DNA of 64,000 nt. It comes from Gekko japonicus (Eukaryota). Shown here one piece after another: positions 1,343 to 51,819 of the stretch. The notes below the pieces were generated by a model that was given only the letters and a program-made list of their open reading frames with translations, searched no databases and was not told the origin of the DNA. The position numbers and the translations under genes are program-made. The stretch is taken from contig NW_015160218.1 of NCBI RefSeq assembly GCF_001447785.1, positions 149,262 through 213,261 of the forward strand, read 5' to 3'. Position 1 is the stretch's first letter, and each line of letters begins with the position of its first letter.

Positions 1343-1830
1343 TTGCCTGGTGTTGTTGCACTGACCAGGCCTTCACAGCAATTTTTAAGTGACTATATTT
1401 CCCTCTTAAATGATATCAGTGACTATCAGTTGGACCCATGGCTACTGTAACATATAGTTTGGCCAGAAGGAAGCGAAAGGCTGTTCATAAAACTCAGCAA
1501 AAAGCCACCATCTTAATAGAGGGGAGGGGAACAAGGAAGAGAGTCTAGCAGAGATGTAGAATTGGGGGAAAATGTGATTGCACAAAAGCACAATAAAAGG
1601 GAAAAGCTGTGGGTGAAGTAGAACCTATACAGTTTACTGTGCTTCTGTTGTGGGATTTTATATACACACAAGTGAGAAAGCTACAAGGAACTTGCAGGAG
1701 AGGGGAACTCTCACCCACCCCCATTCATTTTCACTTCATCTGCTCTTACTTGGTCCCCTGCTGTCATTTCCCCCCCTTTCTCTGGCACTGTAGGACTGAA
1801 AACTCCAACTAAGGGAAAACTCCAACTAAG

Positions 1831-2123
1831 GGAGAGCCAGTTTGGTGTAGTGGTTAGGTGCACGGACTCTAATCTGGGAGAACCGGGTTTGATTCCCCAC
1901 TCCTCCACTTGCACCTGGCTGGATGACCTTGGGCAAGCCGTAGTTCTGATAAGAGCTGTTCTTTAAAAAGAGCAGTTTCTGTCAAGAGCTCTCTCAGCCC
2001 CACCTACCTCACAGGCTGTCTGTTGTGGGAAGGGGAAGGGAAAAGAGTTTGTAAGCCGCTCTGAGACACCTTTGGGTAGTGAAGGGCGGGGTATAAATCC
2101 AATCTCTTCTTCTTCTTCTTCTT
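1831..2123 (+). mobile_element. tRNA-derived SINE (Squam3-type)
   Basis: A box TGGTGTAGTGG; B box GGTTTGATTCC; L2-like 3' end; (TCT)n tail. Confidence 0.85.
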
Positions 2124-2152
2124 TTGGAGATTTGGGGGAGGTGCCTGGAGAC

Positions 2153-2576
2153 TAGGGCTGTAGCCAGCATTGGAGCTTTGGGGGCTGAGCCCCCTATTGC
2201 ATACCCCAAAACTCCACAAGGCACCCTAAAGCCCCCCACCCCACTGCCTTGCATGGATTCCTAAACCATCTCACCTCAGGCCGCTGCCAGCCCCATAGCT
2301 GGCTCGAAGACCTTCCTTCCTTGTGTAGGCGGGGGTGGGGAGAGAGCCTGGGGCACATGATGCTACCGTACCATGATGCCTTCCTTCCTTCTCCCCCACA
2401 GAGAAGTACCTGGCCTTCTTGGGTAGGCCTCCTTCCTTCCTTGAGTGGGCTGGCATGGAGCAGGGGAGTGAGAGAAAGTGAGGGGGGGTAGTAGCTACTT
2501 TTAATTTAAGTTAATTTCATTAGAGTCCCACCTGGTCCCCCAGAGCCCCCCTAAAAAAATCCTGGCTACAGGGCTG
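2153..2576. mobile_element. hAT-like MITE nested in another MITE remnant (~2125-2745)
   Basis: Ends TAGGGCTGTAGCCAG and CTGGCTACAGGGCTG; TSD 6/8 (CTGGAGAC/CTGGGGAG). Confidence 0.65.
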
Positions 2577-4268
2577 CTGGGGAGGCAGAATTTAGAGAGG
2601 GGGGTGAACTCAGTGGGTATGTGATGCCACAGAGTCTGCCCTTGCAAGCTTCCATTTCTTCCAGGGGAACTGATCTCATAGTCTGGAGTTCAGCTGTAAT
2701 TTTGGGACAGCCATCCCAAGCCCCACATGGAGGCTGGTGACCCTCGCACCCCACCAGCACCTTCCAGCCATCACTTTCTTCTCCTCATCAGCTTCACCTT
2801 TTTTTTAAAGTTCAGTTATATGGAGCTGCTAGGCAATCCCATAATGCCAAACATGAGCTCGGGAGGTCTCAAACAGCATTTTATCTTTGAAGTTGTGTTT
2901 GCAGGTGCAGACACAGCTTCTCTGTTTCTGAGAGGGTTAAACTCCCACTTTTTAAACTTTTGAGATTTTTCTGAAACCCTGGGGATTTCCCCACATCAGT
3001 AGAAACATCTCTGGCCCATCATTGAGATTTTTTGCTCTACACTCTAGGACAAAGTTCAGGATTAGATGTAAGTTCTGTTTAATTTATTTTATGTTCCTTG
3101 GGAATCAATTCAAGCTCCATTACTGATTTTATAGTTCCATTATTAAAACAGTGAAGGACAGCATTCTGTTTGGATCTTGACACTGGTCTCTCATATTTTT
3201 TTTTAAACAACCACCACGGAAGCATGTTATTTTGAGTAATTTAGATAAACTAAGTCAATACTGTCTCTGTCCTGCAGCTGAAGACAAGAGATTTCTTCTC
3301 AATCAATGTTATCTATAACTGATGGCAGCTGTTTCAACTGCTTCTCTTGCCATTTTCAAAATACTACATCCTCAGTTGATGTTTCTGGAAACTTCTTTTT
3401 GTGACCTGGTGAATAATGCAAATTCATATGTCAGACATTCCAGATTTATGTGGAAAAGGGATCCTTTTATGAATAGCAGGGTTTTGTTTTTTACTTTAAG
3501 CAGTGATGTTTAAAGAATTATTTTTATGTAGGGCTGAGTGTCAGGTACAGCTTGAGACATTTCAATGTTATAGATTTACATTTTATATACATACATAATT
3601 AAAATAGGAACAAGCTTCTATTTAGGAATAATCAGACCCCCCCCCCTTCCCATTGTTACTTGGTTGTCTAATTGAAGTCACCAGGCTTAGAACTGGGCTT
3701 AGAACGTCACTGCAAAACTGTTAAATATCCTGCATTCCCAACAGCAGCTACCTTAACAAGAAATACCATTTGTAAAAATATCACAAAAAGTCACCACATG
3801 AAATCCATCAAAACCAGCAGTTTAAAAGTATGTAGATAAACCAACCCAATAAAACAAAGAGCCAGCAGAAAACATAACAATCTGAAAACCGAAAGGACGG
3901 CAAGATGGACAGATTTCAAAAACACTGACAAAAAGGCTCTTCATAATGGAGGGGAGGGGAAATCAACACATTCTTTCATGGTAAGCCTGGGAGAAAAAAT
4001 GTTTTTGCCTGGCAATCAAATCTCAGAAATCTAGGTGCCAAACAAACCAATTCCACAATGAAAGCACTGGAGCTGATAAGCCCCTGTCGTAGTGCTCATA
4101 CATCTCACTTCAGAATTGAGGGCAGACACAGATCCTATATGGCAGATTTCAACCTGTAGGCAGATTTCTCTGGTCCTCCGCATTTTACCCTCACAACAAC
4201 CCTGGTGACTGGCTCAGAGTTGGCCAGTGAGCAGGGAGTAAAATATGGAAAGAACATCTTGGTTATCT

Positions 4269-4625
4269 TGTTAGATCGCGCTAACAAAGGACTCGTACAG
4301 TGATTCAGCAAGTGATTCAGCTTTATTGGAAGTAACGAACAAGCACTAACTCAGTAAGAAACCAGAACAGAAAACAGTGGGAGCTTATGCTCCTTTTAAA
4401 CATAACCGGGCTAATGTAGCCACTCCTATTTACAAATAACAACCAATGAGATTGCTAGAATAAAGACCAATGGGAGTCTTTCCCTCCTAGGGAATGGTAT
4501 CGTTCTGATTGGTCGCTGTTACGAAGCGACCAATAGGAAGTTCGTTCAGAGGAGCCCTGGTCTGGCTCGAAGCTTAACATGGGAGTCCTATGAGGTGATT
4601 CATGTAATCATTTCAATACATTACA
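4269..4625 (-). repeat. 3' LTR of the intact Gypsy element
   Basis: Matches 8881-9237 except at 4363/8975 and 4424/9036; contains several CCAAT boxes, a TTTAAA TATA-like motif and AATAAA on the minus strand. Confidence 0.96.
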
Positions 4626-4640
4626 ATTCCTCCCCCCTAA
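4626..4640 (-). promoter_or_regulatory. Polypurine tract of the intact Gypsy element
   Basis: Minus strand TTAGGGGGGAGGAAT immediately before the 3' LTR. Confidence 0.9.
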
Positions 4641-4698
4641 GTTAAGCCATCATCCCAATTGTTTTATTATTTACATACATACAATCACCCTTTGTACA

Positions 4699-7600
4699 TC
4701 AGCTATTCCAACAGTATTTACACTCATAGTCCTTCAGATAAGTCGGCATTTGCCGCGAACGCTGGGACCTACGGAGCGGTGCAGGCTCCATGGGCAGACA
4801 AGGTTGTGGGTCAGAGTGGGGTTCACTACAGCCTGGATCAGGCACAGACTCGACTGGGATTTCAGCCCCGCACACAGGGTTCTGCCCTGACTCGGGGACA
4901 GTACCGGGCCTTTCGGTACTCACCGCCTGCTCTGGGGGTGTCCACTCGACATCAGGGGATTCAGCCGTCGGAGAGTCAGCGCTGTCCCTAGCCCAACGTC
5001 TCCTTAACTGATCTATGTGGCGCCGCCATATTCGACCGTCAGCTAACTGCACCACATACATTCGAGTACCCACAGAGTCGGATATAACCCCAGGAAGCCA
5101 CAAGTGCCCGTTTGCATAATTTCGTGCGAAAACCTTGTCCCCTTTTTCAAACATGCGCACCTTCGGTTGCGCCGTGGTACGCTCGGATTGCTCTTCAGTG
5201 AGGTCTGGGTGCATTCGGTTCAAACGGGTCGTGAGTCTCCGCCCCATTAACAATTCGGCCGGACTACGGCCTGTAGCACTACAGGGGGTGGTGTGCTGCA
5301 GCAAAAGAAAGGAGCCCAGCCTCTGGCTCCAGTCCCCTTCGTCCATTTTACCCAGGGCCTCTTTGGCCGTCCTGACCATCCGTTCGGCTTGGCCATTAGA
5401 TGCCGGATGGAAAGGGGCCGAAGTCATTTGGCGTATGCCATTACTCGTGAGGAAGAGCCTAAATTCCTCAGACACAAATTGAGGCCCGTTGTCACTGACG
5501 ATGACGTCAGGCAACCCGTGGGTGGCAAAAAGTCGGCGGAGCGCATGGATCACAGCAAGTGATGTGGTCGATTTCATATGCACGACCTCCAGCCATTTGG
5601 ACATAGCGTCCACCACAATTAGGAACATTTGCCCTTGGAGAGGGCCAGCAAAATCTATATGCAATCTGGCCCAGGGTTTACCAGATGACTCCCAGCCTTG
5701 GGGTGTAGCTTGTGGGGGATCGGGTCTGACTTGCTGGCATTTGGGACACCCTCGTACCCATTCTTCGATCTCTTTGTCCAGCCCCGGCCACCAGACATAC
5801 CCTCTGGCCAACGCTTTGGTGTGTACCATACCGGGGTGACCCTCGTGCAGCGACTCTAACACTCTCGTCCTGAGTTTGTCAGGAACCACCACCCTGTTCC
5901 CCCATAATACACAGCCCTTAGAAATGGATAGTTCATTTTGACGGCTTTTGTAAGGGCCGAACTCCGGTTCAACGCTTCCAACCGGCCACCCCCTCCAAAC
6001 CCAGTTTAATACTCGGGACAGCACGCTATCCTTGGCCGTGTGTGCTGCAATGTCCCTGGATGATACCGGGGGTCGAGGAAGCTCCTCAATTGCCAAGACC
6101 TCACAGGCGGGGGCAGGGTCTGCGCCAATGTCCGGCACCGGGCACCGGCTGAGGGCATCCGCATGCCCAATCGCTTTCCCAGGCCGGTGCTCTAAGTCAA
6201 AATCATAAGCCTGCAAAAATATCGCCCATCTAAGCATGCGTGGGGACATGATGTTTGGCAATTGCTTATCGGGCGCAAAAATCCCCAGTAGCGGCTTGTG
6301 GTCAGTGACCAGCAAAAATCGTCTGCCAAAAATAAAATCATGGAACTTTTTGACAGCCGCTACCAACGCCAGACCCTCCTTGTCTATCTGGGCATAGTTC
6401 CGCTCTGCCGCAGATAGTGATCTAGAATAAAAAGCGATAGGCGCTTCGCTCCCATCAGGCATCAGATGGCTTAAAACTGCGCCTACTCCAAACGGTGAAG
6501 CGTCAGCAGCTAACACCAGGAGCTTGTGTTCATCATAATGCGTGAGTACGGCATTAGATGTCAGCAGCTCCTTGACTCCCACAAAAGCCTTTTCCTCGGC
6601 CTGCCCCCACTTCCATTTTGCCTCCTTGTGCAAAAGCGCGTGCAAAGGGGCCGCCACTGATGCCTTATGCGGTAAAAACGCATGATAAAAATTCAGGAGT
6701 CCTAAAAAGGATTGGAGCTCCTTCTTACTCACCGGCCTGGGGGCGTTTTGGATTGCAGATACCTTCTCATCCGTGGGGTGGACTCCCTCTGCGTCAATGC
6801 GAAACCCCAGGAAGTCCACACTTTCCACCCCGAGCGTGCATTTTGAGCGCTTAACTCTGAGGCCGGCATTTTGAAAACGCCTGAGGACCTCTTTAACCCG
6901 GTCCAGTAGTTCCTGTTCAGACCCGCCCGCAATCAGCACGTCGTCAAAATAGGGCACTGTGCCAGGTACCCCCCTTAGTAGACGTTCCATGAGGCCCTGA
7001 AAAATCCCAGGTGCTACGTTGACCCCGAATTGCAGCCTGTTCACTTTAAAAGCCCCTTGGTGGGTTACAATTGTTTGGGCCTCGGCAGCCTCCGGGGTGA
7101 CAGGCAACTGCTGGTATGCCTGGGCCAGGTCAAATTTGGCGAAAATCTTGCCACCCCCCAGGGAAGCCAAAATGTGGCTTATTACCGGGACCGGGTACGA
7201 ATGTTGCTGCAGCGCCTTGTTAATCGTACATTTGTAATCGGCGCATAGTCGTATGGACCCATCTGATTTGACAGGGGTTACGATCGGGGTCTCCCATTTG
7301 CTGTATGGTACTGGCTCTAAAACCCCTTGCTCAACTAGTTTGTCAATCTCTTTTTCCACCTTATGTTTGAGAGACACAGGTACTTTCCGATACTTCAACC
7401 TAATAGGTTTGACTGACGGATCTAAGTCAAACGCAACCGGGGGGCCCTTGTACCTTCCCAACCCTTCGGCAAATACATCAGGGAACAGGTCGTACAGCAT
7501 GCCCCATTTATTTTCAGACATCCTGTTAATCCCAGAAATACCGATGCCCAATGGCTCAAACCAATCTAACCCTAGCAGGTTAACCCGGTCTCCCTCTGCA

Positions 7601-8862
7601 ATCAGGAATGACAGTTTAACACATTTCCCCTTATACTCAACAGTAACAGAGTCCCGTCCGGCCAAGGGAATTCGGTTGCCCTGGAAGTCGGACACTCTGG
7701 TTCCCGCAGGCTGGAGCCGCCGCCGGCTTCGGTTCGGGAACAACTGGCGCCAGGACGCGGCAGAAATCACCGTCACGGACGATCCTGAGTCCACCTCCAT
7801 TGTACAGGGTCGGCCGTCGAGGAGTGGAGTCACGGTGATCTTGCCCTGGCTGCTGGTGCGATTTACGGCCGATGCGCTCGACAAGGTCGCCGTCAACTGG
7901 CAGCTTGCTTCCGATGCTGAGGAACGGGTCTTGCCTTGGGTGCTGACTGGAGTGCCCCTCTGCGCTGACCGGTTGTTAGTTGAGGGATCCTTCTTCGCTG
8001 ATCTGCAGACTCTGGCCAGATGACCACGCCGCCCACACGCTCTGCAGTCGACATCACGAGCCCAACAGGAGCCGCGCTGGTGCTTCCCGCCACAACCGGA
8101 GCAAGGCTTGACGTTGGTAGTCTTCGCTGGGGTCCGCTTGCCTCGAACCGCGTTGACGTCATCATCCGCGTCTTCGCCCTCGCTGTCTCGTTGAGCGTGT
8201 ATACTGGGCTCTGCCACCCGCTGGCGGACCTCCTTCGTGGACTTCTCCGCTGCTTCCGCGGCCACGGCCTCTTCGTAGGCCACTGCCCAGGTCAGGGTGG
8301 TGCGGGCGAACAGCCTCTGTTGCAGCCTTTCATCTTTGAGACCGCAGACGAGACGGTCTCTGAGGGCTTCCTCCACGTTGTGGAAATTACATGGCCGTGC
8401 GGCTTTGCGAAGGGCCGCCACGAAATCTGCGATGGTCTCGCCTCCGGCCTGGTTCCGCTTGTAAAAAGCGTGCCGGCAGGCGATCTCCGACGGTTGTGGA
8501 GAATAGTGAGCCTTAAGCTTCTCCGTGATGTCAGCGTAGGTGACAGTCTTTATATCAGTTGGGGCCACCAACGACCTGGCTATGTCGAAGGTCCCCTTCC
8601 CGCAGGAACTCAGGAGGCATGCTCGTTTCTTCGCCTCATCGGTGATGTCGTGGGTCTCCAGATGGAACTCGAACCTGGACAGGTAGGAGTCCCAGTCTTC
8701 TGAGGAGGGTTCGAAGCACTCGAACTTCTGGCTTCCAGCCATCGGGGGAGACTTGGGCACCGGAGCTGGTGGCGCCTCCGCCGGATCGGCTGCTGTGCTC
8801 TGCCCGCTTTCTTCCGAGTCCGAAGTGTGGATGTCCGCAGGGCTGCCTACCTGCTCTAACAT
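4699..8862 (-). CDS. Gag-Pol polyprotein, single ORF of 1387 aa (true start may be the downstream Met at 8742, MAGSQ...)
   Basis: Two CCHC-type knuckles (CSGCGGKHQRGSC, CRACGRRGHLARVC); protease MEVDSGS; RT PYFDDVLI; RNase H LAADASPFGVGAVL...TDHKPL; integrase Zn finger LHEGHPG...CPKC and DDE core HIDFAGP / SDNGPQF / GQAERMV; no stops or frameshifts. Confidence 0.95.
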   Translation of the reverse strand: MLEQVGSPADIHTSDSEESGQSTAADPAEAPPAPVPKSPPMAGSQKFECFEPSSEDWDSYLSRFEFHLETHDITDEAKKRACLLSSCGKGTFDIARSLVAPTDIKTVTYADITEKLKAHYSPQPSEIACRHAFYKRNQAGGETIADFVAALRKAARPCNFHNVEEALRDRLVCGLKDERLQQRLFARTTLTWAVAYEEAVAAEAAEKSTKEVRQRVAEPSIHAQRDSEGEDADDDVNAVRGKRTPAKTTNVKPCSGCGGKHQRGSCWARDVDCRACGRRGHLARVCRSAKKDPSTNNRSAQRGTPVSTQGKTRSSASEASCQLTATLSSASAVNRTSSQGKITVTPLLDGRPCTMEVDSGSSVTVISAASWRQLFPNRSRRRLQPAGTRVSDFQGNRIPLAGRDSVTVEYKGKCVKLSFLIAEGDRVNLLGLDWFEPLGIGISGINRMSENKWGMLYDLFPDVFAEGLGRYKGPPVAFDLDPSVKPIRLKYRKVPVSLKHKVEKEIDKLVEQGVLEPVPYSKWETPIVTPVKSDGSIRLCADYKCTINKALQQHSYPVPVISHILASLGGGKIFAKFDLAQAYQQLPVTPEAAEAQTIVTHQGAFKVNRLQFGVNVAPGIFQGLMERLLRGVPGTVPYFDDVLIAGGSEQELLDRVKEVLRRFQNAGLRVKRSKCTLGVESVDFLGFRIDAEGVHPTDEKVSAIQNAPRPVSKKELQSFLGLLNFYHAFLPHKASVAAPLHALLHKEAKWKWGQAEEKAFVGVKELLTSNAVLTHYDEHKLLVLAADASPFGVGAVLSHLMPDGSEAPIAFYSRSLSAAERNYAQIDKEGLALVAAVKKFHDFIFGRRFLLVTDHKPLLGIFAPDKQLPNIMSPRMLRWAIFLQAYDFDLEHRPGKAIGHADALSRCPVPDIGADPAPACEVLAIEELPRPPVSSRDIAAHTAKDSVLSRVLNWVWRGWPVGSVEPEFGPYKSRQNELSISKGCVLWGNRVVVPDKLRTRVLESLHEGHPGMVHTKALARGYVWWPGLDKEIEEWVRGCPKCQQVRPDPPQATPQGWESSGKPWARLHIDFAGPLQGQMFLIVVDAMSKWLEVVHMKSTTSLAVIHALRRLFATHGLPDVIVSDNGPQFVSEEFRLFLTSNGIRQMTSAPFHPASNGQAERMVRTAKEALGKMDEGDWSQRLGSFLLLQHTTPCSATGRSPAELLMGRRLTTRLNRMHPDLTEEQSERTTAQPKVRMFEKGDKVFARNYANGHLWLPGVISDSVGTRMYVVQLADGRIWRRHIDQLRRRWARDSADSPTAESPDVEWTPPEQAVSTERPGTVPESGQNPVCGAEIPVESVPDPGCSEPHSDPQPCLPMEPAPLRRSQRSRQMPTYLKDYECKYCWNS

Positions 8863-8878
8863 CCCATCCTCGTCGCCA
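8861..8878 (-). promoter_or_regulatory. Primer-binding site complementary to the tRNA-Ser(GCT) 3' end
   Basis: Plus strand ATCCCATCCTCGTCGCCA equals the recalled 3' 18 nt of vertebrate tRNA-Ser-GCT including CCA; 2 nt from the LTR. Confidence 0.9.
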
Positions 8879-8880
8879 AT

Positions 8881-9237
8881 TGTTAGATCGCGCTAACAAA
8901 GGACTCGTACAGTGATTCAGCAAGTGATTCAGCTTTATTGGAAGTAACGAACAAGCACTAACTCAGTAAGAAACTAGAACAGAAAACAGTGGGAGCTTAT
9001 GCTCCTTTTAAACATAACCGGGCTAATGTAGCCACGCCTATTTACAAATAACAACCAATGAGATTGCTAGAATAAAGACCAATGGGAGTCTTTCCCTCCT
9101 AGGGAATGGTATCGTTCTGATTGGTCGCTGTTACGAAGCGACCAATAGGAAGTTCGTTCAGAGGAGCCCTGGTCTGGCTCGAAGCTTAACATGGGAGTCC
9201 TATGAGGTGATTCATGTAATCATTTCAATACATTACA
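8881..9237 (-). repeat. 5' LTR of the intact Gypsy element
   Basis: TG...CA ends; adjacent to the PBS. Confidence 0.96.
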
Positions 9238-10099
9238 TATCTGTAACATCTTGCTGAGCATTTGCCTTTCCCTTCCTGTTGCAGGTATAGAGCTTGGGCA
9301 TGACCAGATGAATGAGCCCTCGGCTGCAACTCAGAGGGTTCTTGGCCTGCAGCCTTTGGATGAGTCTGTCACTGGATTCAGACCTGGCCCAAACCTTACT
9401 TAATTGTTCCGTTACTTGGTTGGTTGATTTATATTTTATTATTTACTGTTAAATAATTTAAATAAATAAATACTGGTTGATCAGTGATAAGAACCCAGAT
9501 GTTCCCAATGCTTTGACACTCTAACCATTTCACTGTACTACTGACTTTATCAGAATGTTTCGCGTTGGAGCTATAGTGACATTTTTATTTATGTCTTTGA
9601 ACTAGATTTTTATCTCATTGTTTCCATCTTTGCCAAGATAACAATCTCATTGACATTCAAGATGGTGCATTATGACTTGCTGAATTCTAATGGAGGTTCC
9701 TCCTAAAAATGAAAATGTGGTCAATTTGACTGGCTCAGACACAGTGCAACATCAAGGAACGGCATTAGATTAAAACCATGCAACGATATAAACCTTTAAA
9801 AGTACTTTTGATGAGAATGTGTGTGCGCGTGCGTGCGTGCATGCGCACACACAAATGTTGAGAGGGCATTCTCTATTTCTATTTTAATTTGATACAGTGA
9901 TCTCAGTATTCAAGTTACCAGGGAGTTGGGAAATAAGGCTACCAGAGCAACCCAAATCAAAGTTACACCCTCTTAAACCCATTGACTTCCATGGACTTAG
10001 AATTATAAAACTCTGCTTAGGACGGCACTGTCAGTCAGCACATTAAGTAGCAATAGAGTCAATTGGGCAGTAGAAAAATTCTAGAAATGTGGCACCGAC

Positions 10100-10805
10100 T
10101 TACCGGTCTCCACCTGTTGTGGATCAGGAGTGGGAAGAGTAAGAGGAAGCATGGTCTGCATCCTCGTGCTGTCCGCAGGTTCCGTGGGTGGGTCCAGCTG
10201 CATAGGCTGGCCAACAGCAGCAGCTGAGGCAGCTCGATGTTGGGCAGGGTGGGGAGGCCCTGTTGGCTATTTAAGTCCAGCATAGCAGCTGGTTCACCCT
10301 CAGTTCGGCCTCATTGGCTTGCCCTCCCTCCCTCCCTGTTTTTAATGTGCAAATGTTACGGGATGTTTTTGTGTTGTTACAATTGTAATGCTATTCTTGT
10401 CACAGCTTGGGTGGTTTGTGGTTTTGGGTATTGGGACAGATCGTTTGAAGGGGGAAGGTCATGCCTGTGTGCCTACCTCCCCTGGTTTGGGGACTTTCTT
10501 AAAGGATCTTGGGGTGGAGCCACTCAGCCATATGTCCTGTTGGGGGCTGCTGGCTGGCTTCCACCACCAGGTGGCCACATGGATCCTGGGTCTTGCTAGT
10601 CCATGGTTTTATCCCGCAGAAGTTGGGCTGGGGTGTGTGGTTATTGGGCAGCAGGAAGGTCACCTGATGCTGGATTCCATCCCCATGCTGCACCAATGCT
10701 TCTTCGGTTGTACTCAATAAAAAAACTGTGGCCATGTTTTTACCAAATACTGGTCTCTGTGTGTTTTCTTCCTCTACATCGTCTCTTATCCTCCCTGAGA
10801 CGACA
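10100..10805 (+). mobile_element. Non-coding remnant, probably DIRS/Ngaro-type (related copy at ~41680-42070 on the minus strand)
   Basis: Both loci share GTCACC..ATGCTGGAT...ATAAAA..CTGTGGCC; family assignment from recall only. Confidence 0.45.
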
Positions 10806-11444: not shown

Positions 11445-12518
11445 AGAGAGAAATTAAGTTTTCAGTCTCTATACTGAAAACTCATGAACATTTTAAAAAG
11501 AATTTTGTTGAAGAGGTTCTGAAACTCCATTTAGAGCTACTTGATCAACATTTGGTTCGGCATTCTTATTGGATTCCTCAAATTGTCTATGTCTGCTCCA
11601 GTTGTATGTCTGCTCCAATTGGTTTATTACATTTGTGAGAGACAATTTTCCTTTTGCTTCAGTTTGAGACATTGCATTTTCGTAAGACTTTGGCAAGCTA
11701 ATCAACAGCAACACAACCAAGTCCTGGTCTGCAATCTTTCCCCCAGCACTTCTTAACTGTTGGGTTAGATTAAGCATTTCATCTTGGTCACACAAATTAC
11801 CCTGTTCTGAGATCTTAGTGCTGAACAATCTCTTTTTTATGTAGCACTGGCTTTTCAGAGTCAAATTTACATAAAGCCTCTTCAATTCAGACCATACAGT
11901 TTAGCAGTTTGCATTTGAATCACTCTTAGAACCTCTCTATCTGTCAAACCTTTTATCCTGGCTCCTCTTACCTTCTTGTTGTCTGTGTCAGACTTTTTGC
12001 TTTGTTGGATCATCATCTTCCAGTTGGGGTTTTTGAATAGCATGCCACAGTCCTGTATCAAGCAGGTGACTCTTCATTTTCTTCTTCCATATCAAGTAGT
12101 TGCCTTCTATAAGCCTAGTAGGTAACTGTGCTGAACAATGCAGGAAGTTGCCATATTTGTTCTTTTGCCTACTGATCTTTCTATCTTTTCTATTCCCACC
12201 CCCCAGCTGAAATAATCATGCTGGGCCCAGAACCCTGTTGGCAGAATGTAGCTATGTAGTAAAGTGGAGTGCAAGGTGTTTAAAGAATAAAGTCAGTTTA
12301 TTAAGAAGAGAACAGACTTTGTAAGAAAGAGGAGAAAGAAAGAAAAGTCCAGCTGTCTAACTAGCTAGTAGAGAGTCAGTAGGAGAAGAGATTTAAGCAG
12401 GAGAAGGAAAATCCCCAATTGAGCCATCAGGAGACAGGAAGGAGACTATTTGAAAATAGTAGGAAGTCCCTAATCTCACTATGCTAACTAGTTGTCCACT
12501 CTGCTGGCCCCTGCAATA
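11445..12518 (-). mobile_element. 5' portion of a Ty1/Copia LTR retrotransposon (LTR ~12236-12518, PBS, decayed gag), running into an assembly gap
   Basis: Copia-type gag motifs NYLIWKKKMKSHLLDTGLWHAI and QLRSAGGKIADQDLVVLLLISLPKSYE; GGTTCTGGGCCCAG next to the LTR resembles the copia half-tRNAiMet PBS GGTTATGGGCCCAG. Confidence 0.8.
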
Positions 12519-32673: not shown

Positions 32674-32890
32674 TAAGAGAACATAAGAACTTAAGAGACG
32701 CCGATGTTGGATCAGGCCAAAGGGCCATCCAGTCCAACACTCTGTCACACAGTGGCCAAAAATTCCAGGTGCCATCAGGAGGTCCACCAGTGGGGCCAGG
32801 ACATTAGAAGCCCTCCCACTATCCCTTCTACCCCAAGCACCAAGAAGACAGAGCATCCCTTGCCCCAGACTGAGATACACTCCCCACTGA
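32674..32890 (-). mobile_element. CR1 3' end (same subfamily as 50394-50701)
   Basis: Reverse complement closely matches ~50530-50700; CATAAGAA tail repeats. Confidence 0.88.
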
Positions 32891-32999
32891 TGGACCTCTG
32901 ATGGGTGGGGAGTGTACGTCTGGTCTAGAAGCCCAGATTATTGCGCAGATGTCCCCTACACAGTGCTGAGCACAGCTGATACCTGCAAGTCTGTCACCT

Positions 33000-33830
33000 G
33001 AAAGGTGATCCTTATTCTTGGCTGCATCTATTAGTGTATTCCATCTAAGCTTTCTAGCCAAATTTTTCTTACTTCTCAGGAGGTATTTATAGGCCTTCTT
33101 TTTTGCTTGTACTTCTAGTTTATTATCAATCACTGGGTCTTTATGAAATTCTTTGAGGCTCCTAATAAGTCTCTGTTTTGCCTGGACACAGTCCTTATCA
33201 AACCAGCTTTTATTATTGGGACACCCCATCTGGGAATTATTATTTTCATGAGATAGAAGAAAGGATAGATGGACCGTTAGTTGTGCATAGATATTAAGAA
33301 TAGGAGCTTCATGCTTAGGACCCTCTTTCGTCACTGGAGATGATAATTTTCTGTAGATATCCCTCCCTAATTCAGATGTTGTCCACGCTAGAAATTTATC
33401 ATTCAGCTTGGGACACCAGTTAAGTTTCCGTCTGCTTGTTATATTATCCACTTTTAAGAAGGTTCCATGGGCTTTGTATAGGGGGGCAGACCCTACATCC
33501 CAGCTTAAATTGAGCGGCAGATGGTCACTCTCAACTCGCTCTTCAATATAGAGGCACTTTACCCTTTCAAACATATCATTGGTGGTTATCAAATAGTCTA
33601 TAGTGGAATGTCTGTTACTAGACCAATAAGTGTATTGCCCCGGGTAATCACCTAGAATTACTCCATTTAAAATCTTAAGATTCAGTTTGTGCGTCAGCTG
33701 GGCTAAACAGAGCCCTGCATAATTCACAACCACATCCAATGAACATCGATCGTTTGGCCCATCCACACCCTCCCCATCCCATGATTCTATCCCAAACTTA
33801 TCAAATAGAATCTCATCATTTGCCCCCAGC
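33000..33830 (-). mobile_element. Internal LINE ORF2 fragment (APE endonuclease C-terminal half plus linker; RTE-X/L2-group-like)
   Basis: GQYTY...STIDYL...ESDHLPL and WFDKDC motifs in a stop-free frame of ORF 32828-33880. Confidence 0.85.
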
Positions 33831-33935
33831 CTTGCCATTGCCTTTGTCAGCGTAGCCTTCCTTGGTGGTCTGTCTGTCATTCAAGTTCCGGCCTCACTTA
33901 GCTTCTGAGATCTGATGAGATCAGGCTGCATTATG
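33831..33935 (-). mobile_element. 5S rRNA-derived SINE fragment
   Basis: Minus strand GCCTGATCTCATCAGATCTCAGAAGCTAAG resembles the 5S rRNA segment GCCCGATCTCGTCTGATCTCGGAAGCTAAG. Confidence 0.7.
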
Positions 33936-46660: not shown

Positions 46661-46999
46661 GGGGTAGAGGTATGACTTGAATAAAAGCTTTACCAGGATG
46701 AAAAGTACTGGGTTTGACGCATGGAGAACTCGGACAACGACATGTGTTCAGGTGCATTTATTGTACTTCACAACAAGACAAGGAAAAACAGCCCTGCAAG
46801 GTCAACTATATACACTCCACCCAGCACACCTCTGTCCCCTTTGGAGGGTTTGAATTTCCTGCCAAGGGTGCTATTGGTGGACTCTAGGTGGACTAGGATC
46901 CTAGGTCCCCTTTGTGTTTGGAGACCAAGGTCCTGCTTAGCCACAGACCCCTGGTGGTGGTCCACATACCCCTCCCCCCTTAGTTCCAATTCAACCTAT

Positions 47000-49900
47000 G
47001 TTACATAGTCCTGCAGATAGGCGGGGGGGTCTGTGCTCTCAGAGAAAATGCCAGGGCGCTGGCACGGGGTTGCTTACGGTCGCCTCTGGCTGGCTGACCA
47101 TGTCTGATTGTGGCGAGGGTGGAGAGGGCAGTGGCGGCTCTTTGGGTTCCGGTGGTGTGGCCAGGGGCTTGACTGGTGGGGGCTCACCTGTGCGGGGGAG
47201 TTTGGGCCGAGTGCTGGCCTGCAGTGTATAGAGTCCCAGTCCCTCGAGCCAGGGTTGCTCCTCAGCCTCTGGGAGCTGTCACCACCTCAGTTGGTAGATA
47301 CATTTTTTCAGGAGTTGGCCATCATCTGTAGAGACCTCATATGATACCGGGCCGGTGATTCGGACTACCCAGCCGGCAATCCAGGAGGGCCCTCTCCCAA
47401 AGTTCCAGATAAACATGGTGTTGCCTGGAAAGAACCCAGTGATGGGGTTGGGTGTTGTCCACTGTGTCAGTAGGAAGTGGGTGAGCTGGAACTCCCAGTC
47501 CCCATCCATGATCCAGCTGAGGGCTTCCTTTGCTGTGCAAACCATCCTCTCCGCTTGTCCATTGGTCGCGGGGTGGAAAGGTGCCAATCTTATGTGCTGA
47601 ATCAGGTTCCACTGGAGGAAGTCCTGGAGCTCTGCCGACGTGAAGGCAGTCCCGTTGTTGGAGACTATTGTGTCCGGCAGCCTATGGGTGGAGAAGATCT
47701 GGCGGAGTGAGCGTATGATGGTCTTTGTGGAGGTGGTGGACTTGGGGCTGATTTCCAACCATTTGGAGTACGGGTCCACTGTTACCAGGAATATCAGCCC
47801 CTGGAAGGGCCCGGCAAAGTCAATATGTAGCTGGGACCAAGGTTTGTGTGTAAACTCCCATGACTGGGTTGGCATGCTTGGCGGGTTTGGGCGGACTGCC
47901 TGGCAGGTCTGGCATCTCCTCACCCAGGCCTCAATCTCAGTATTGATTCCCAGTCACCAAACATAGCTCCGGGCCATGGCCTTCATCCTTACAATTCCCG
48001 GATGCACCTTGTGGAGAGTGTAGAGGACTCGTTGTTGCAGGGCATAGGGAACTACGACCCTGTCACCCCACAGGAGATAACCCTTGAGTGCCAATAGCTT
48101 ATCCTTTCGGGTTGCGAATGCTGCAAACTTGGGGCCCGCGGAGGTCATGGGCCACCGTCTCACCACCCAGCCCAAAACCTGGAGATGATGGGGTCATGGG
48201 CCAATCGGGCAGTGATATCCATGGCCTAAAGGGGTGGTTCGGGGAGGCCTTCAAGCATCAGAACTCTGGACAGGAGGGGCAGTCTGCTGAGGGCATCGGC
48301 GTGCCCCATCGCCTTGCCCAGCCGGTGTTCCAGGCAGTAATTGTAACCATCCAGGAAGAGGGACCAATGGAGAACCCTGGGTGAAAGTATCTGGGGGGTC
48401 TGTTTGTCCACCACAAATAAGCCGAGGAGAGGCTTCTGGCCAGTTACAATAGTGAAGGGGCACCCGTACACAAAATTATGAAACTTTTTCACCCCTGCTA
48501 CAATTGCCAACCCCTCCCGGTCTATCTGCATGTAATTATGCTCAGCAGCTGTCAAAATCCATGAGTAGTAAGCCACGGAGACCTCTCAGCCATCAGGAAG
48601 AAGGTGGCCCAGAACTGCGCCGATGCCACAGGGGGAGGTGTTGCATGCGAGGACTACAGGCAGGGACTCATGAAAGTGTGCCAACACCTTGTTCGAGATG
48701 AGTAACACCTTGAATGCCGCTGCCTCCCTCGGGCCCCACGACCTGGGCGCTGATTTATCCAGGAGGCGATGAAGAGGCTCCGCAACCGCAGCCTTGTATG
48801 GCAGAAAGGTGTGATAAAAGTTCAGGAGTCCTAAAAATGCCTGAAGTTTTGCCTTGCATGTGGGTCTAGGGGCCTCCATGATGGCCTTGACCTTGTCCCG
48901 CGCTGGATGGAGTCCAGACACATCAACTGTTGGGTGTGGCCTATTATGCTACCAAAAAAGCCCTGGGTTTAACACATCTGCTGCAGAATTACTACATTCT
49001 TATTTCACTGCCAGTTAAAGTCATGATGGCCCCAATTAGAGTGATGGATGAGAGGCCCATCAATGGCTGCTAGCCATTGGAGACTAAACGGAACCTCCAT
49101 GTCCAGAGGTAGTTAACCTCACAATACAACGAAGCACCAAATCAGGGTCAAGGTTTTGGTGTTAACCTTTAAGGCCCTAGACCAGGGGTGTCAAACATGC
49201 GGCCCGGGGCCTGGATCAGGCCCCCGTAGGGCTTCTATCAGGCCCACAGGGCAGTTGTTGGCATGCCTGCGTGAGATCCAACTTGCCAAAAATCTTAGAC
49301 CCTGCTAAGGAAGCCAACACATGACTTATGACTGGAACGGGGTAGGCATGGTCGTGGAGGGCCTTGTTCAATGTACATTTATAGTCCGCACAGATGTGGA
49401 CATTGCCATTAGGCTTGATGAGGGTTACAATGGGGGTCTCCCACAGCTCATGGGAGCCTGGTTGGAGGACCCCTTGTGCCACTAAACAGTCCAGCTCTGC
49501 ATCGATTTTTGGCTGCAAAGCGAGCGGGGCGATGCAAAACCGCATATGGATGGGGACAATTTGGGGTTTGAGTTGCAATGAAACAGGGGTCCCTTGTAAC
49601 AACCCAGAGCCCCATCAAATACCACTGGGAATTCCCCACAAACCTGAGCAAAATCCTGTGGTGCACATTTATTCATCCCCCCAACTGTGATGCCCAACGG
49701 CGCAAACCACGCCTGCCCCAATAAGCTAACCAAATTCCCCTCCACTACAATCAAGTCCAGGAAACCCTCAAACCCCCGGTAATTCACCTGAAAAGTCCCC
49801 ACACCCCATATAGGAACCAGGTTCCTCTGGAAGTCCACAAGGTTCAAGGGCAAAGGCCGCAGGTGGGACCCGCCATTCAGACAAAGGCTGTTCAGCGTTT

Positions 49901-51172
49901 CCACAGATATGATGGAAGCTGCTGACCCTGAATCCACTTCCATGTGGCAGGGGGACCCTTCGATTGTGACCTGGACCTGGATCTTCGGGGAAGTTGTGGG
50001 GGCATAGTACCTGTAGTGAGGGCTGGCTGGTCAGGAGATAGAGATTGTCCATGCCCTCGGTGGCCTCGTAGTGCGCAGAGGCCTGGCAGCATGATTTCAG
50101 CTGGGGTGGATGGTTCTGGTTGCCCTTGGATCTGCAGACGTGGGTGAGGTGTCCTTGTTTTCCACATGTGTGGCAGCTGGTGTCACGGAACTGGCACAAC
50201 TTGCGCTTGTGTGCCTCTCTGCAGCTGGCGCATGGGGAACGTCCGGCAGGCTTACCGAAGTATCTGGAGGCTCCAGCAGATCCCGGCAGCTTCCAGCGGT
50301 GGACGTCGTCCACGACTGAGGGTTCGGGCGCCGAGTTGGGGAGCATGAGATGGGATGCTGCTGGTGGTCGGTTGCGGTGGGAGGCCTTGTGGGACTTGCC
50401 ACAGGAAGTGGTGGCAGCTACAAGCGTGGACGGCTTCAAAAGGGAATTAGATAACCATATGGAGCAGAGGTCCATCATTGGCTATTAGCCACAAGATATA
50501 GATAGGGGCTCTGGGGCAAGTGATGTTCCGTCTTCTTGGTGCTTGGGGGGGGGTCAACAGTGGGAGGGCTTCAAATGTTCTGGCCCCACTGGTTGACCTC
50601 CTGATGGCACCTGGTATTTCTGGCCACTGTGTGACACAGAGTGTTGGATTGGATGGGCCTTTGGCCTGATCCAACATTGGCTTCTCTTATGTTCTTATGT
50701 TCTTGTGGGCAATGGTGAGCTGGAGGGCCTTGTTGGATTTGATGTCAGATGTGCCGATCATCTTTCTGTGGAGCTTAATGTTGCTGATTCCCCAGGCGAA
50801 TTGGGTCAAGAGGTTCTCCTCCACCTTGGAGAAGATGCATACCATAGCGTGTTGGCACAGTGCAGTCATGAATGCTGTGGCCATCTCGCCGGGCTTCTGG
50901 ATGTGCCCCTGGAATTCCATATGCTTGGCCAGCATCGTAGGCTTGGGCATGAGGTACCTGGTCAGGGTGTCTATGATCTCCTCGTACGTACACTCAAGGA
51001 TAACCTTCGGGGCCAGGAGGCTCTTCATCTGCTGAGGAGGAGAGCCCTTCTCTTGCCTGCATCAGTTATCTCGTGGAAGGCGAGATGGCAGGTTAGCTGG
51101 TCTATCCACGAATCCCAGAGCATGGAATGAGTGGGGTCAAAAACCTCAAGGTGTCCTGGAGCGGAGGCCATG
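47000..51172 (-). pseudogene. Frameshifted and interrupted gag-pol of the degenerate Gypsy element
   Basis: ORF-track fragments 51025-51264, 50687-51028, 49768-50478, 49482-49943, 49216-49602, 48586-48921, 48226-48576, 47954-48175 and 47279-47923 are collinear with the 1387-aa protein. Confidence 0.9.
50394..50701 (+). mobile_element. 5'-truncated CR1 LINE inserted into gag of the degenerate Gypsy element
   Basis: CR1 3' end with (TTCTTATG)n tail; TSD CTTGTGGG at 50386-50393 and 50702-50709. Confidence 0.9.
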
Positions 51173-51819
51173 ACTCTAGCGCAGAGCGGCGGAGCGGTGT
51201 TCAGCAACACCGGGCACGGTGTGGTGCTGTTCGGGAGCGGTGTGCGGTGGCATTTCAGGAACAACGCTCGGTGCTGTGCTGGAAGGTGAGCCTGGCCTGC
51301 TCATCAAGATCCCATCCTCGTCACCACAGAAAAGTACTGGGTTCGACGCATGGAGAACTCAGACAACGACATGCGTTCAGGTGCATTTATTGTACTTCAC
51401 AACAAGACAAGGAAAAACGGCCCTGCAAGGCAAACTATATACACTCCACCCGGACCACGTCTGTCCCCTTTGGAGGGTTTGAATTTCCTGCCAAGGGGGC
51501 TATTGGTGGTCTCTAGGTGGACTAGGATCCTAGACCCCCTTTGTTTTGGGAGACCAAGCTCCTGCTTAGCCGCGGACCCCTGGTGGCGGTCCGCGTACAT
51601 AACGCCGGAGGTTTTAAAAGTTTTTCTCTCTGGGTAGAGAAGAGGCAGGGAGGAGGAAGTCAGTACAATGGCTTTCCAGCTTCACATCAGCTACCTCTTA
51701 AGAAATGCTAATAGGTCCTGCTAGAGACAATAGGATGGTCCAGTCTCCCCTCCCCCATCCAAGCAGGAAACAGAGGTTTGGAGGTATTAAGTACTAGAAG
51801 GACTTCAGGAAGAAACTTC

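What the first reader, a model, noticed from the sequence alone, without database searches (positions are those of the whole stretch)
4269..9237. Potentially transposition-competent Gypsy retrotransposon in a lizard genome
Seen in sequence: every cis element (LTRs, TSD, 18/18 PBS, PPT) and every catalytic motif is intact in one 1387-aa ORF. The LTRs differ at only 2 of 357 nt and CpGs are abundant compared with the flanks. Established: LTRs are identical at insertion, and intact Gypsy elements are not retained in mammals and birds apart from domesticated genes. Inference: this is a recent insertion from a family that may still be active. It is a compact 4.97-kb, env-less element.
Basis: partly seen in the sequence, partly recalled or inferred. 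Interest (0 to 1): 0.7.

Follow-up and report, generated by a model that had tools for sequence, protein, structure and literature searches.

The report
Gecko Gypsy burst; primer tRNA inherited
This is a real, young insertion of a jumping-gene family with several hundred copies in what is likely a gecko genome; its apparently intact middle is likely filler pasted in by the genome assembler, and the family likely rewrites its primer site from the host tRNA at each jump, as retroviruses do.

Summary
The anatomy is as described: 357-nt LTRs (2 differences), 5-bp target duplication, 18-nt tRNA-Ser(GCT) primer site, polypurine tract, one 1387-aa gag-pol ORF, no env. It is one of a large young family (775 exact LTR-PBS junctions; 13 of 33 sampled LTR pairs have no substitution). 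But the middle ~3.2 kb, which holds every catalytic motif, is very likely not this locus's own sequence. 21 of 34 copies share it letter for letter, which version a copy gets depends on contig orientation (p=1e-14), and one of its letters is absent from 26 of 26 RNA reads. Competence of this copy is therefore not shown. RNA reads look largely like passive read-through. Young Gypsy families in squamates are already known. Two by-products are more interesting. First, 772 of 775 primer sites match one of three host tRNA-Ser isodecoders, and the type is unlinked to downstream sequence although sites on either side stay linked: the footprint of retrovirus-like primer copying, which yeast Ty3 lacks. 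Second, hard-tick families fall in one clade with the squamate families, which suggests an old horizontal transfer.

The parts
4264..4268 (.). target-site duplication, left copy (TATCT)
4269..4625 (-). 3' LTR, 357 nt, TG..CA
   Evidence: one private change at 4424
4627..4638 (-). polypurine tract (12 purines), 1 nt before the 3' LTR
4699..8862 (-). single gag-pol ORF as assembled, 1387 aa from the first ATG (likelier start Met41, about 8742): two Cys-His knuckles, PR D358, RT D578 and YFDD 638, RNase H D787/E829/D854/D902, IN HHCC and D1070/D1124/E1160; no chromodomain hit
   Evidence: residue roles from established knowledge of these folds
5240..8490 (-). interior likely filled from an assembly template shared by many loci (boundaries approximate); holds all catalytic motifs
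8861..8878 (-). primer-binding site, type A, 18/18 to host tRNA-Ser(GCT); 2-nt spacer 8879-8880
8881..9237 (-). 5' LTR, 357 nt; TATA-like words at LTR nt 194 and 226, AATAAA at nt 299
   Evidence: one private change at 8975
9238..9242 (.). target-site duplication, right copy (TATCT)

Best explanation
This is a real insertion, likely 0.1-3 million years old, of an env-less Ty3/Gypsy retrotransposon family with several hundred copies, whose LTRs, primer site and junctions are locus-specific but whose intact-looking middle is likely an assembler's template, so this copy's competence is unknown. Mechanism of the family: a transcript from the 5' LTR would make one Gag-Pol polyprotein (inferred); host tRNA-Ser(GCT) would prime minus-strand synthesis at the 18-nt PBS (match shown, priming inferred); the PPT would prime the plus strand; integrase inserts with a 5-bp duplication (TSDs shown). 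The plus strand likely copies the 18 3' bases of whichever isodecoder primed, so the daughter's PBS is reset to a host tRNA sequence at each cycle (statistical footprint shown, biochemistry inferred).
For: Family size: 775 exact LTR-PBS junctions, 1523 exact LTR 25-mers, 620 interior 24-mers. Youth: in the first 40 junctions listed, 33 have paired LTRs, 13 of 33 without a substitution, 22 of 33 with at most 2, 29 of 33 with a perfect TSD; 6 copies carry private letters in both LTRs. Purifying selection between subfamilies: dN/dS 0.08-0.09 at dS 0.51-0.63. Template: 21 of 34 close copies share an identical 2901-nt middle; private changes fall from 2-3 per kb per copy near the ends of the internal region to 0.02 in the middle; 20 of 20 copies oriented like the window carry the window's middle against 1 of 14 opposite ones; at window 8072 the window letter is in 39 of 51 plus against 2 of 49 minus matches, and in 0 of 26 RNA reads and none of the laid contig depth of two DNA runs. 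Primer copying: A+B 748, C 24, D 3 of 775; A, B, C match called tRNA-Ser(GCT) genes, D matches none of 23 tRNA-end hits; PBS type is unlinked to 19 of 19 downstream sites (mean r2 0.005) while 31 of 152 U5 x downstream pairs are linked across it at p<0.001 (29 of 128 after stratifying by orientation); on a leader-only tree PBS changes 25 times (shuffled 23.0) while U5 alleles change 12-13 times (shuffled 21-24).
Against: No long read or PCR of the locus was seen, so the template reading rests on pattern, and the true interior may be open: 2 stops in 34 copies over 591 locus-anchored nt extrapolate to P(open ORF) about 0.66 (0.22-0.95). PBS type is not fully free: it is linked to U5 site 331 (r2 0.14, p 0.0006) and weakly to the LTR tree (25 changes against 30.1, P 0.023). 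Type C is only 3% though 2 of 7 called genes are type C. All linkage data come from the same short-read-like assembly; a few of the sites also lean with orientation (p about 0.01). Some LTR-LTR differences sit at family-polymorphic sites, so LTR dating is noisy. The host is inferred from nearest named proteins (Gekko japonicus, 81-84% over RT-RNase H).
Confidence: 0.85

Rival explanations
1. The interior is truly this locus's sequence and the copies are near-identical because of an ongoing burst from one or two master elements.
For: The family is young; 17 of the 19 best full-length siblings show the same 1387-aa ORF; RNA reads cover the whole element in run X22.
Against: A real allele cannot depend on contig orientation (p 1e-14 and 1.5e-8); copies with 10, 11 and 55 LTR-LTR differences still have middles identical to the window's; reads show sites at 34-63% other letter that are invariant or nearly so in assembled copies (5335, 5338, 7309, 8395).
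Confidence: 0.05
2. PBS types are an old, strictly inherited polymorphism (Ty1/Ty3-like), shuffled by recombination between co-packaged RNAs and filtered by selection for a perfect tRNA match.
For: Mosaic copies between subfamilies exist (L085, L110); weak linkage of PBS type to U5 site 331; Ty3 does not inherit the primer sequence (PMC5371799, passages).
Against: Recombination would break U5-leader linkage before it broke PBS-leader linkage over 50-120 nt; the reverse is seen. All three tRNA-matching types occur in both subfamily groups' leader classes.
Confidence: 0.15
3. The PBS pattern is itself an assembly artefact (random choice at a small bubble).
For: The same assembly has template artefacts.
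Against: PBS type is independent of orientation (26/22 against 23/23); sites deeper inside remain linked to U5; type-B letters are in about a third of raw RNA reads (33 of 89 and 28 of 88), and the D letter alone is about 0.05% of laid contig depth in two other DNA runs (type-B contigs may be filtered there).
Confidence: 0.1
4. The element is old or domesticated, and LTR identity comes from gene conversion.
For: Run X1 appears homozygous for the insertion.
Against: Hundreds of dispersed copies with their own TSDs, high CpG content, and each LTR of this copy carries one private change.
Confidence: 0.02

Closest known systems
Mag lineage of Ty3/Gypsy (Metaviridae), as described in pufferfish (PMC11117352) and Culex (PMC3286476)
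   Same: Single fused gag-pol ORF of about 1330-1390 aa, about 4.7-5 kb, short LTRs, tRNA-Ser (or Leu) PBS, mostly 5-bp TSD, no env.
   Different: LTR 357 nt against 145-304 nt in those tables; placement against a named Mag reference was not testable here.
Recently expanded Gypsy subfamilies of elapid snakes (PMC8872380)
   Same: Young, expanding, expressed Gypsy in a squamate genome.
   Different: Here a gecko-restricted branch (100/100) among many squamate families; lineage of the snake elements not compared.
Yeast Ty3 and Ty1 (PMC5371799; PMC7472051)
   Same: Ty3: same superfamily, domain order PR-RT-RH-IN, tRNA-primed.
   Different: They do not pass the primer tRNA sequence to the daughter PBS; this family shows the footprint of doing so, with a contiguous 18-nt PBS.
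Retroviridae PBS inheritance (HIV-1, MLV; mouse ETn/MusD, PMC7472051 section 4.3)
   Same: 18-nt PBS two nt after the LTR, reset towards host tRNA sequences across the family tree.
   Different: No env; a Gypsy-type polyprotein; here nearly all PBSs are perfect matches, whereas the commonest mouse ERV PBSs carry mismatches.
BovB LINE transfers between squamates and reptile ticks (PMC6050309)
   Same: Tick elements grouping with lizard elements.
   Different: An LTR element, hosts Ixodes and Rhipicephalus, about 72% amino-acid identity, so much older; it concerns relatives, not the window's own branch.

Membership tests
Ty3/Gypsy (Metaviridae) | Direct LTRs TG..CA, PBS, PPT, TSD | tested here: met
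Ty3/Gypsy (Metaviridae) | pol order PR-RT-RNase H-IN | tested here: met
   (PR below the curated cut-off; DSG motif at 358)
Mag lineage | Single fused gag-pol ORF, compact size, no env | tested here: met
   against PMC11117352 passages
Mag lineage | PBS for tRNA-Ser or Leu; mostly 5-bp TSD | tested here: met
   against PMC3286476 passages
Mag lineage | Two Cys-His knuckles in Gag (feature recalled, from no call) | tested here: met
   motifs at residues 254 and 273
Mag lineage | RT/pol phylogeny groups it with named Mag references (Mag, SURL) | not testable with these tools
   no row named as a Mag reference among the hits; GyDB and Repbase not held
Chromovirus / V-clade | Chromodomain after integrase | tested here: not met
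   no chromodomain among 13 Pfam hits at E<=0.1
Errantivirus / endogenous retrovirus | env ORF | tested here: not met
   73 nt between stop codon and 3' LTR
Transposition-competent single copy | Locus-specific intact gag-pol | tested here: inconclusive
   interior behaves as assembly template; only about 590 nt of the ORF are locus-anchored and these are open
Currently active family | LTR-initiated transcripts or polymorphic/de novo insertions | tested here: inconclusive
   unstranded reads with many LTR-flank junctions; no empty allele seen in X1; X2 unresolved
Ty1/Ty3-type PBS inheritance | PBS follows the parental RNA, so it is linked to the adjacent leader | tested here: not met
   0 of 19 downstream sites linked; random on leader tree

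The most novel reading that the evidence does not exclude
An animal Ty3/Gypsy lineage resets its primer-binding site from the priming tRNA at each replication cycle, like retroviruses and unlike the yeast models Ty1 and Ty3, so the PBS spectrum of hundreds of insertions records which tRNA-Ser(GCT) isodecoders primed in the germ line; and the same squamate Gypsy radiation crossed into hard ticks by an old horizontal transfer.
Probability: 0.65. Interest if true: 0.55.

Novelty: new member of a known kind. Interest (0 to 1): 0.4.

Why it matters
The finding as given is ordinary for squamates, and it shows a trap: short-read gap filling can make young retrotransposons look intact at hundreds of loci, and orientation-dependent alleles are a cheap test for it. 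If primer copying holds, the mode of plus-strand transfer differs within Metaviridae (shown by experiment only for yeast Ty3 in the papers seen), and it can be read from genomes alone wherever a host has several isodecoders. The tick-squamate clade would extend the known BovB traffic to LTR elements.

Tried and rejected
No RNA holder was listed on record by the run search; not used as evidence. RNA lay: X22 gave 3459 reads on both strands equally, X23 88 from a similar volume; 99 reads join PPT to U3 but 66 join U3 and 62 join U5 to foreign flanks, so passive read-through or genomic DNA can explain much of it; no claim of LTR-driven expression. Empty-site test: X1 unitigs run 2648-4293 and 9215-10404, 25 and 23 nt into the LTRs (under the tool's 31-nt bridging mark), with no branch; X1 may not be independent of the assembly; X2 unresolved; X3 does not cover the flank. 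Host gene: 24 window ORFs gave only transposon domains; a splice-acceptor-like site near 9286 had no RNA depth. AU test of squamate rows as one clade was not rejected (p 0.092), so nesting and direction of transfer are not shown. One genome pattern was mistyped and gave 0 hits; ignored. Singleton dN/dS (0.37) was not used: it mixes template and real sequence. Lauermann and Boeke 1997 is not held; cited only through two reviews. Earlier scan findings: none near, none by sequence; eight by words concern self-priming or other designs.

Full report
Observation. The element spans window 4269-9237 on the minus strand. The LTRs are 357 nt, TG..CA, and differ at 2 sites; TATCT is duplicated at both ends; an 18-nt PBS follows the 5' LTR after 2 nt; a 12-purine tract precedes the 3' LTR; one ORF of 1387 aa runs 8862-4699. 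Pfam finds RT, RNase H and integrase above cut-off, protease weakly, and no chromodomain. CpG o/e is 0.78 inside and 0.18-0.26 outside. There is no room for env. The first ATG overlaps the PBS, and 27 of 53 homologues aligning near the N-terminus imply a start at position 35-42, so Met41 is the likelier start. The nearest named proteins are from Gekko japonicus, so the host is likely a gecko.

Family. The own genome holds 775 exact LTR-PBS junctions, 1523 exact LTR 25-mers and 620 interior 24-mers; these are lower bounds and span several subfamilies. Of the 20 best LTR hits fetched, 19 are full length at 99.2-99.7% and one runs into a gap; with the window copy, 18 of 20 have a perfect 5-bp TSD of their own. 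Of the first 40 junctions listed, 33 have paired LTRs: 13 without a substitution, 22 with at most 2, 29 with a perfect TSD; 7 had no pair in the stretch fetched. Further subfamilies are 86-89% identical inside, with dN/dS 0.08-0.09. Two differences in 357 give 0.9 My (95% 0.1-3.2) at 3.17e-9 per year, the naive gecko rate in PMC9995274 (passages seen), 0.14 My at its modelled rate, and 2.8 My at 1e-9, a value I chose as a floor.

The interior is an assembly template. Among 34 close copies (42 gap-free copies aligned, 8 more distant ones set aside), 21 share an identical 2901-nt middle, 7 share a second and 3 a third. Private changes run at 2-3 per kb per copy in the first and last 340 nt of the internal region and 0.02 in the middle; copies with 10, 11 and 55 LTR-LTR differences still match the window's middle exactly. 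The version follows contig orientation: 20 of 20 against 1 of 14; at window 8072, 39 of 51 plus matches against 2 of 49 minus matches carry the window's letter among the first 100 of 620 listed. That letter is in 0 of 26 RNA reads and in none of the laid contig depth of X1 and X2, and reads show several common variants missing from all assembled copies. Biology cannot know contig orientation; directional gap filling can (inference). Short-read failure inside LTR elements is documented in barley (PMC8290290, passages). Every catalytic motif lies in this stretch. In the 591 locus-anchored coding bases, 2 of 34 copies have a stop, which extrapolates to about a 0.66 chance (0.22-0.95) that a given copy's ORF is open, before missense damage. 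So the family is coding-competent in the recent past; this copy is undetermined.

Activity. X1 contigs reach both junctions without a branch, which fits a homozygous insertion; X2 is unresolved. RNA run X22 covers the element evenly in an unstranded pattern, with about two LTR-to-foreign-flank reads for every three LTR-to-interior reads; X23 has 40-fold fewer. This does not show LTR-driven transcription. Present activity is open.

Primer site. Four PBS types occur: A 48, B 46, C 4, D 2 in the first 100; over all 775, C 24 and D 3. A and B differ at two positions; C and D are the single-step intermediates. A, B and C match the 3' ends of tRNA-Ser(GCT) genes called in 7 of 23 loci (2, 3 and 2 genes); D matches none of the 23. 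In 119 of 135 copies kept (16 dropped for gaps, divergence, a changed PBS or an apparent repeat place), A/B type (95 copies) is unlinked to 19 of 19 downstream sites, while U5 and downstream sites are linked across the PBS in 31 of 152 pairs, also after stratifying by orientation. On a leader-only tree the PBS is random while U5 alleles are not; on an LTR-only tree it shows a weak signal, and one U5 site is linked. The simplest reading is that plus-strand synthesis copies the primer tRNA and the daughter often inherits it. Reviews state that HIV-1 and MLV do this while Ty1 and Ty3 do not (PMC7472051, section 4.3 read; PMC5371799, passages). Two searches listed no report of this for an animal Gypsy element; the library lacks most subscription journals, supplements were not read, and the retroviral scheme is often assumed for such elements (recalled).

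Relatives. In a 43-row pol tree (LG+G4, 736 columns; rows chosen from the hits) the element sits in a gecko branch within a 100/100 clade of 22 squamate and 3 hard-tick rows; soft tick, scorpion, spider, frog, fish, nematode and insect rows lie outside (77-row quick tree, agrees). Ticks-together is rejected; squamates-together is not. Horizontal transfer between the squamate and hard-tick lineages is likely, its direction unproven, and it does not involve the window's own branch. Searches listed only the BovB precedent (PMC6050309, passages).

Comparison and verdict. It works like, and is, a Ty3/Gypsy LTR retrotransposon; all anatomical Mag features tested are met (PMC11117352, PMC3286476, passages; PMC2774666 passages gave only the range of Mag), but the defining tree with named references could not be run. 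Young expanding and expressed Gypsy families are known in snakes (PMC8872380, passages); the gecko genome paper seen mentions Gypsy only in passing (PMC10776941, passages). Verdict: new member of a known kind; the headline claim is weakened by an assembly artefact; interest 0.4, carried by the primer-copying footprint and the tick link.

Noticed in passing
window 46700-51598 (-): A second, older Gypsy element: LTRs 46700-46969 and 51329-51598 about 92% identical, near-perfect tRNA-Ser PBS at 51326, pol broken into several frames, 34-51% amino-acid identity to the focal ORF.
   Followed up: partly
P0016, P0012/P0135: Multi-copy Rhipicephalus microplus and Ixodes scapularis families (81% to each other) have squamate families as next relatives (72-73% over 741 aa) and sit in a 100/100 clade with 22 squamate rows, sister to lacertid families (97/95); grouping them with the soft-tick relative is rejected (p-AU 0.002; group chosen after the tree was seen).
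   Followed up: partly
L075, L079, L087, L088, L102, L105, L085, L110: At least two further subfamilies, 86-89% identical inside but 92-96% in the LTR, also with near-identical LTR pairs, plus mosaics; mosaics may be real recombinants or assembly products.
   Followed up: partly
window 9023: 27 RNA molecules begin here on the element's sense strand in X22 (depth 130), LTR nt 215, 21 nt after a TATA-like word; possible start site or duplicates.
   Followed up: no
element nt 331 (U5): The only one of 27 sites linked to PBS type; could reflect primer preference of the RNA that donates U5.
   Followed up: partly
window 11496-11900 (-) and 32828-33880 (-): Copia-type gag fragment and a LINE endonuclease fragment.
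   Followed up: no
window about 1830-2125: Very high-copy SINE-like repeat ending in a simple-repeat tail.
   Followed up: no
window 9260-9290: Polypyrimidine tract and AG about 45 nt from the insertion, acceptor-like; no RNA depth in two runs.
   Followed up: partly
window 7253-8023 and 8020-8703 (+): Antisense ORFs of 256 and 227 aa over gag/PR; likely shadows of a GC-rich coding strand.
   Followed up: no
run X3: A run labelled soil metagenome was listed as holding 0.69 of the stretch's words, but when laid on 1800-4310 it covered only the SINE-like repeat, not the flank or the LTR end.
   Followed up: no
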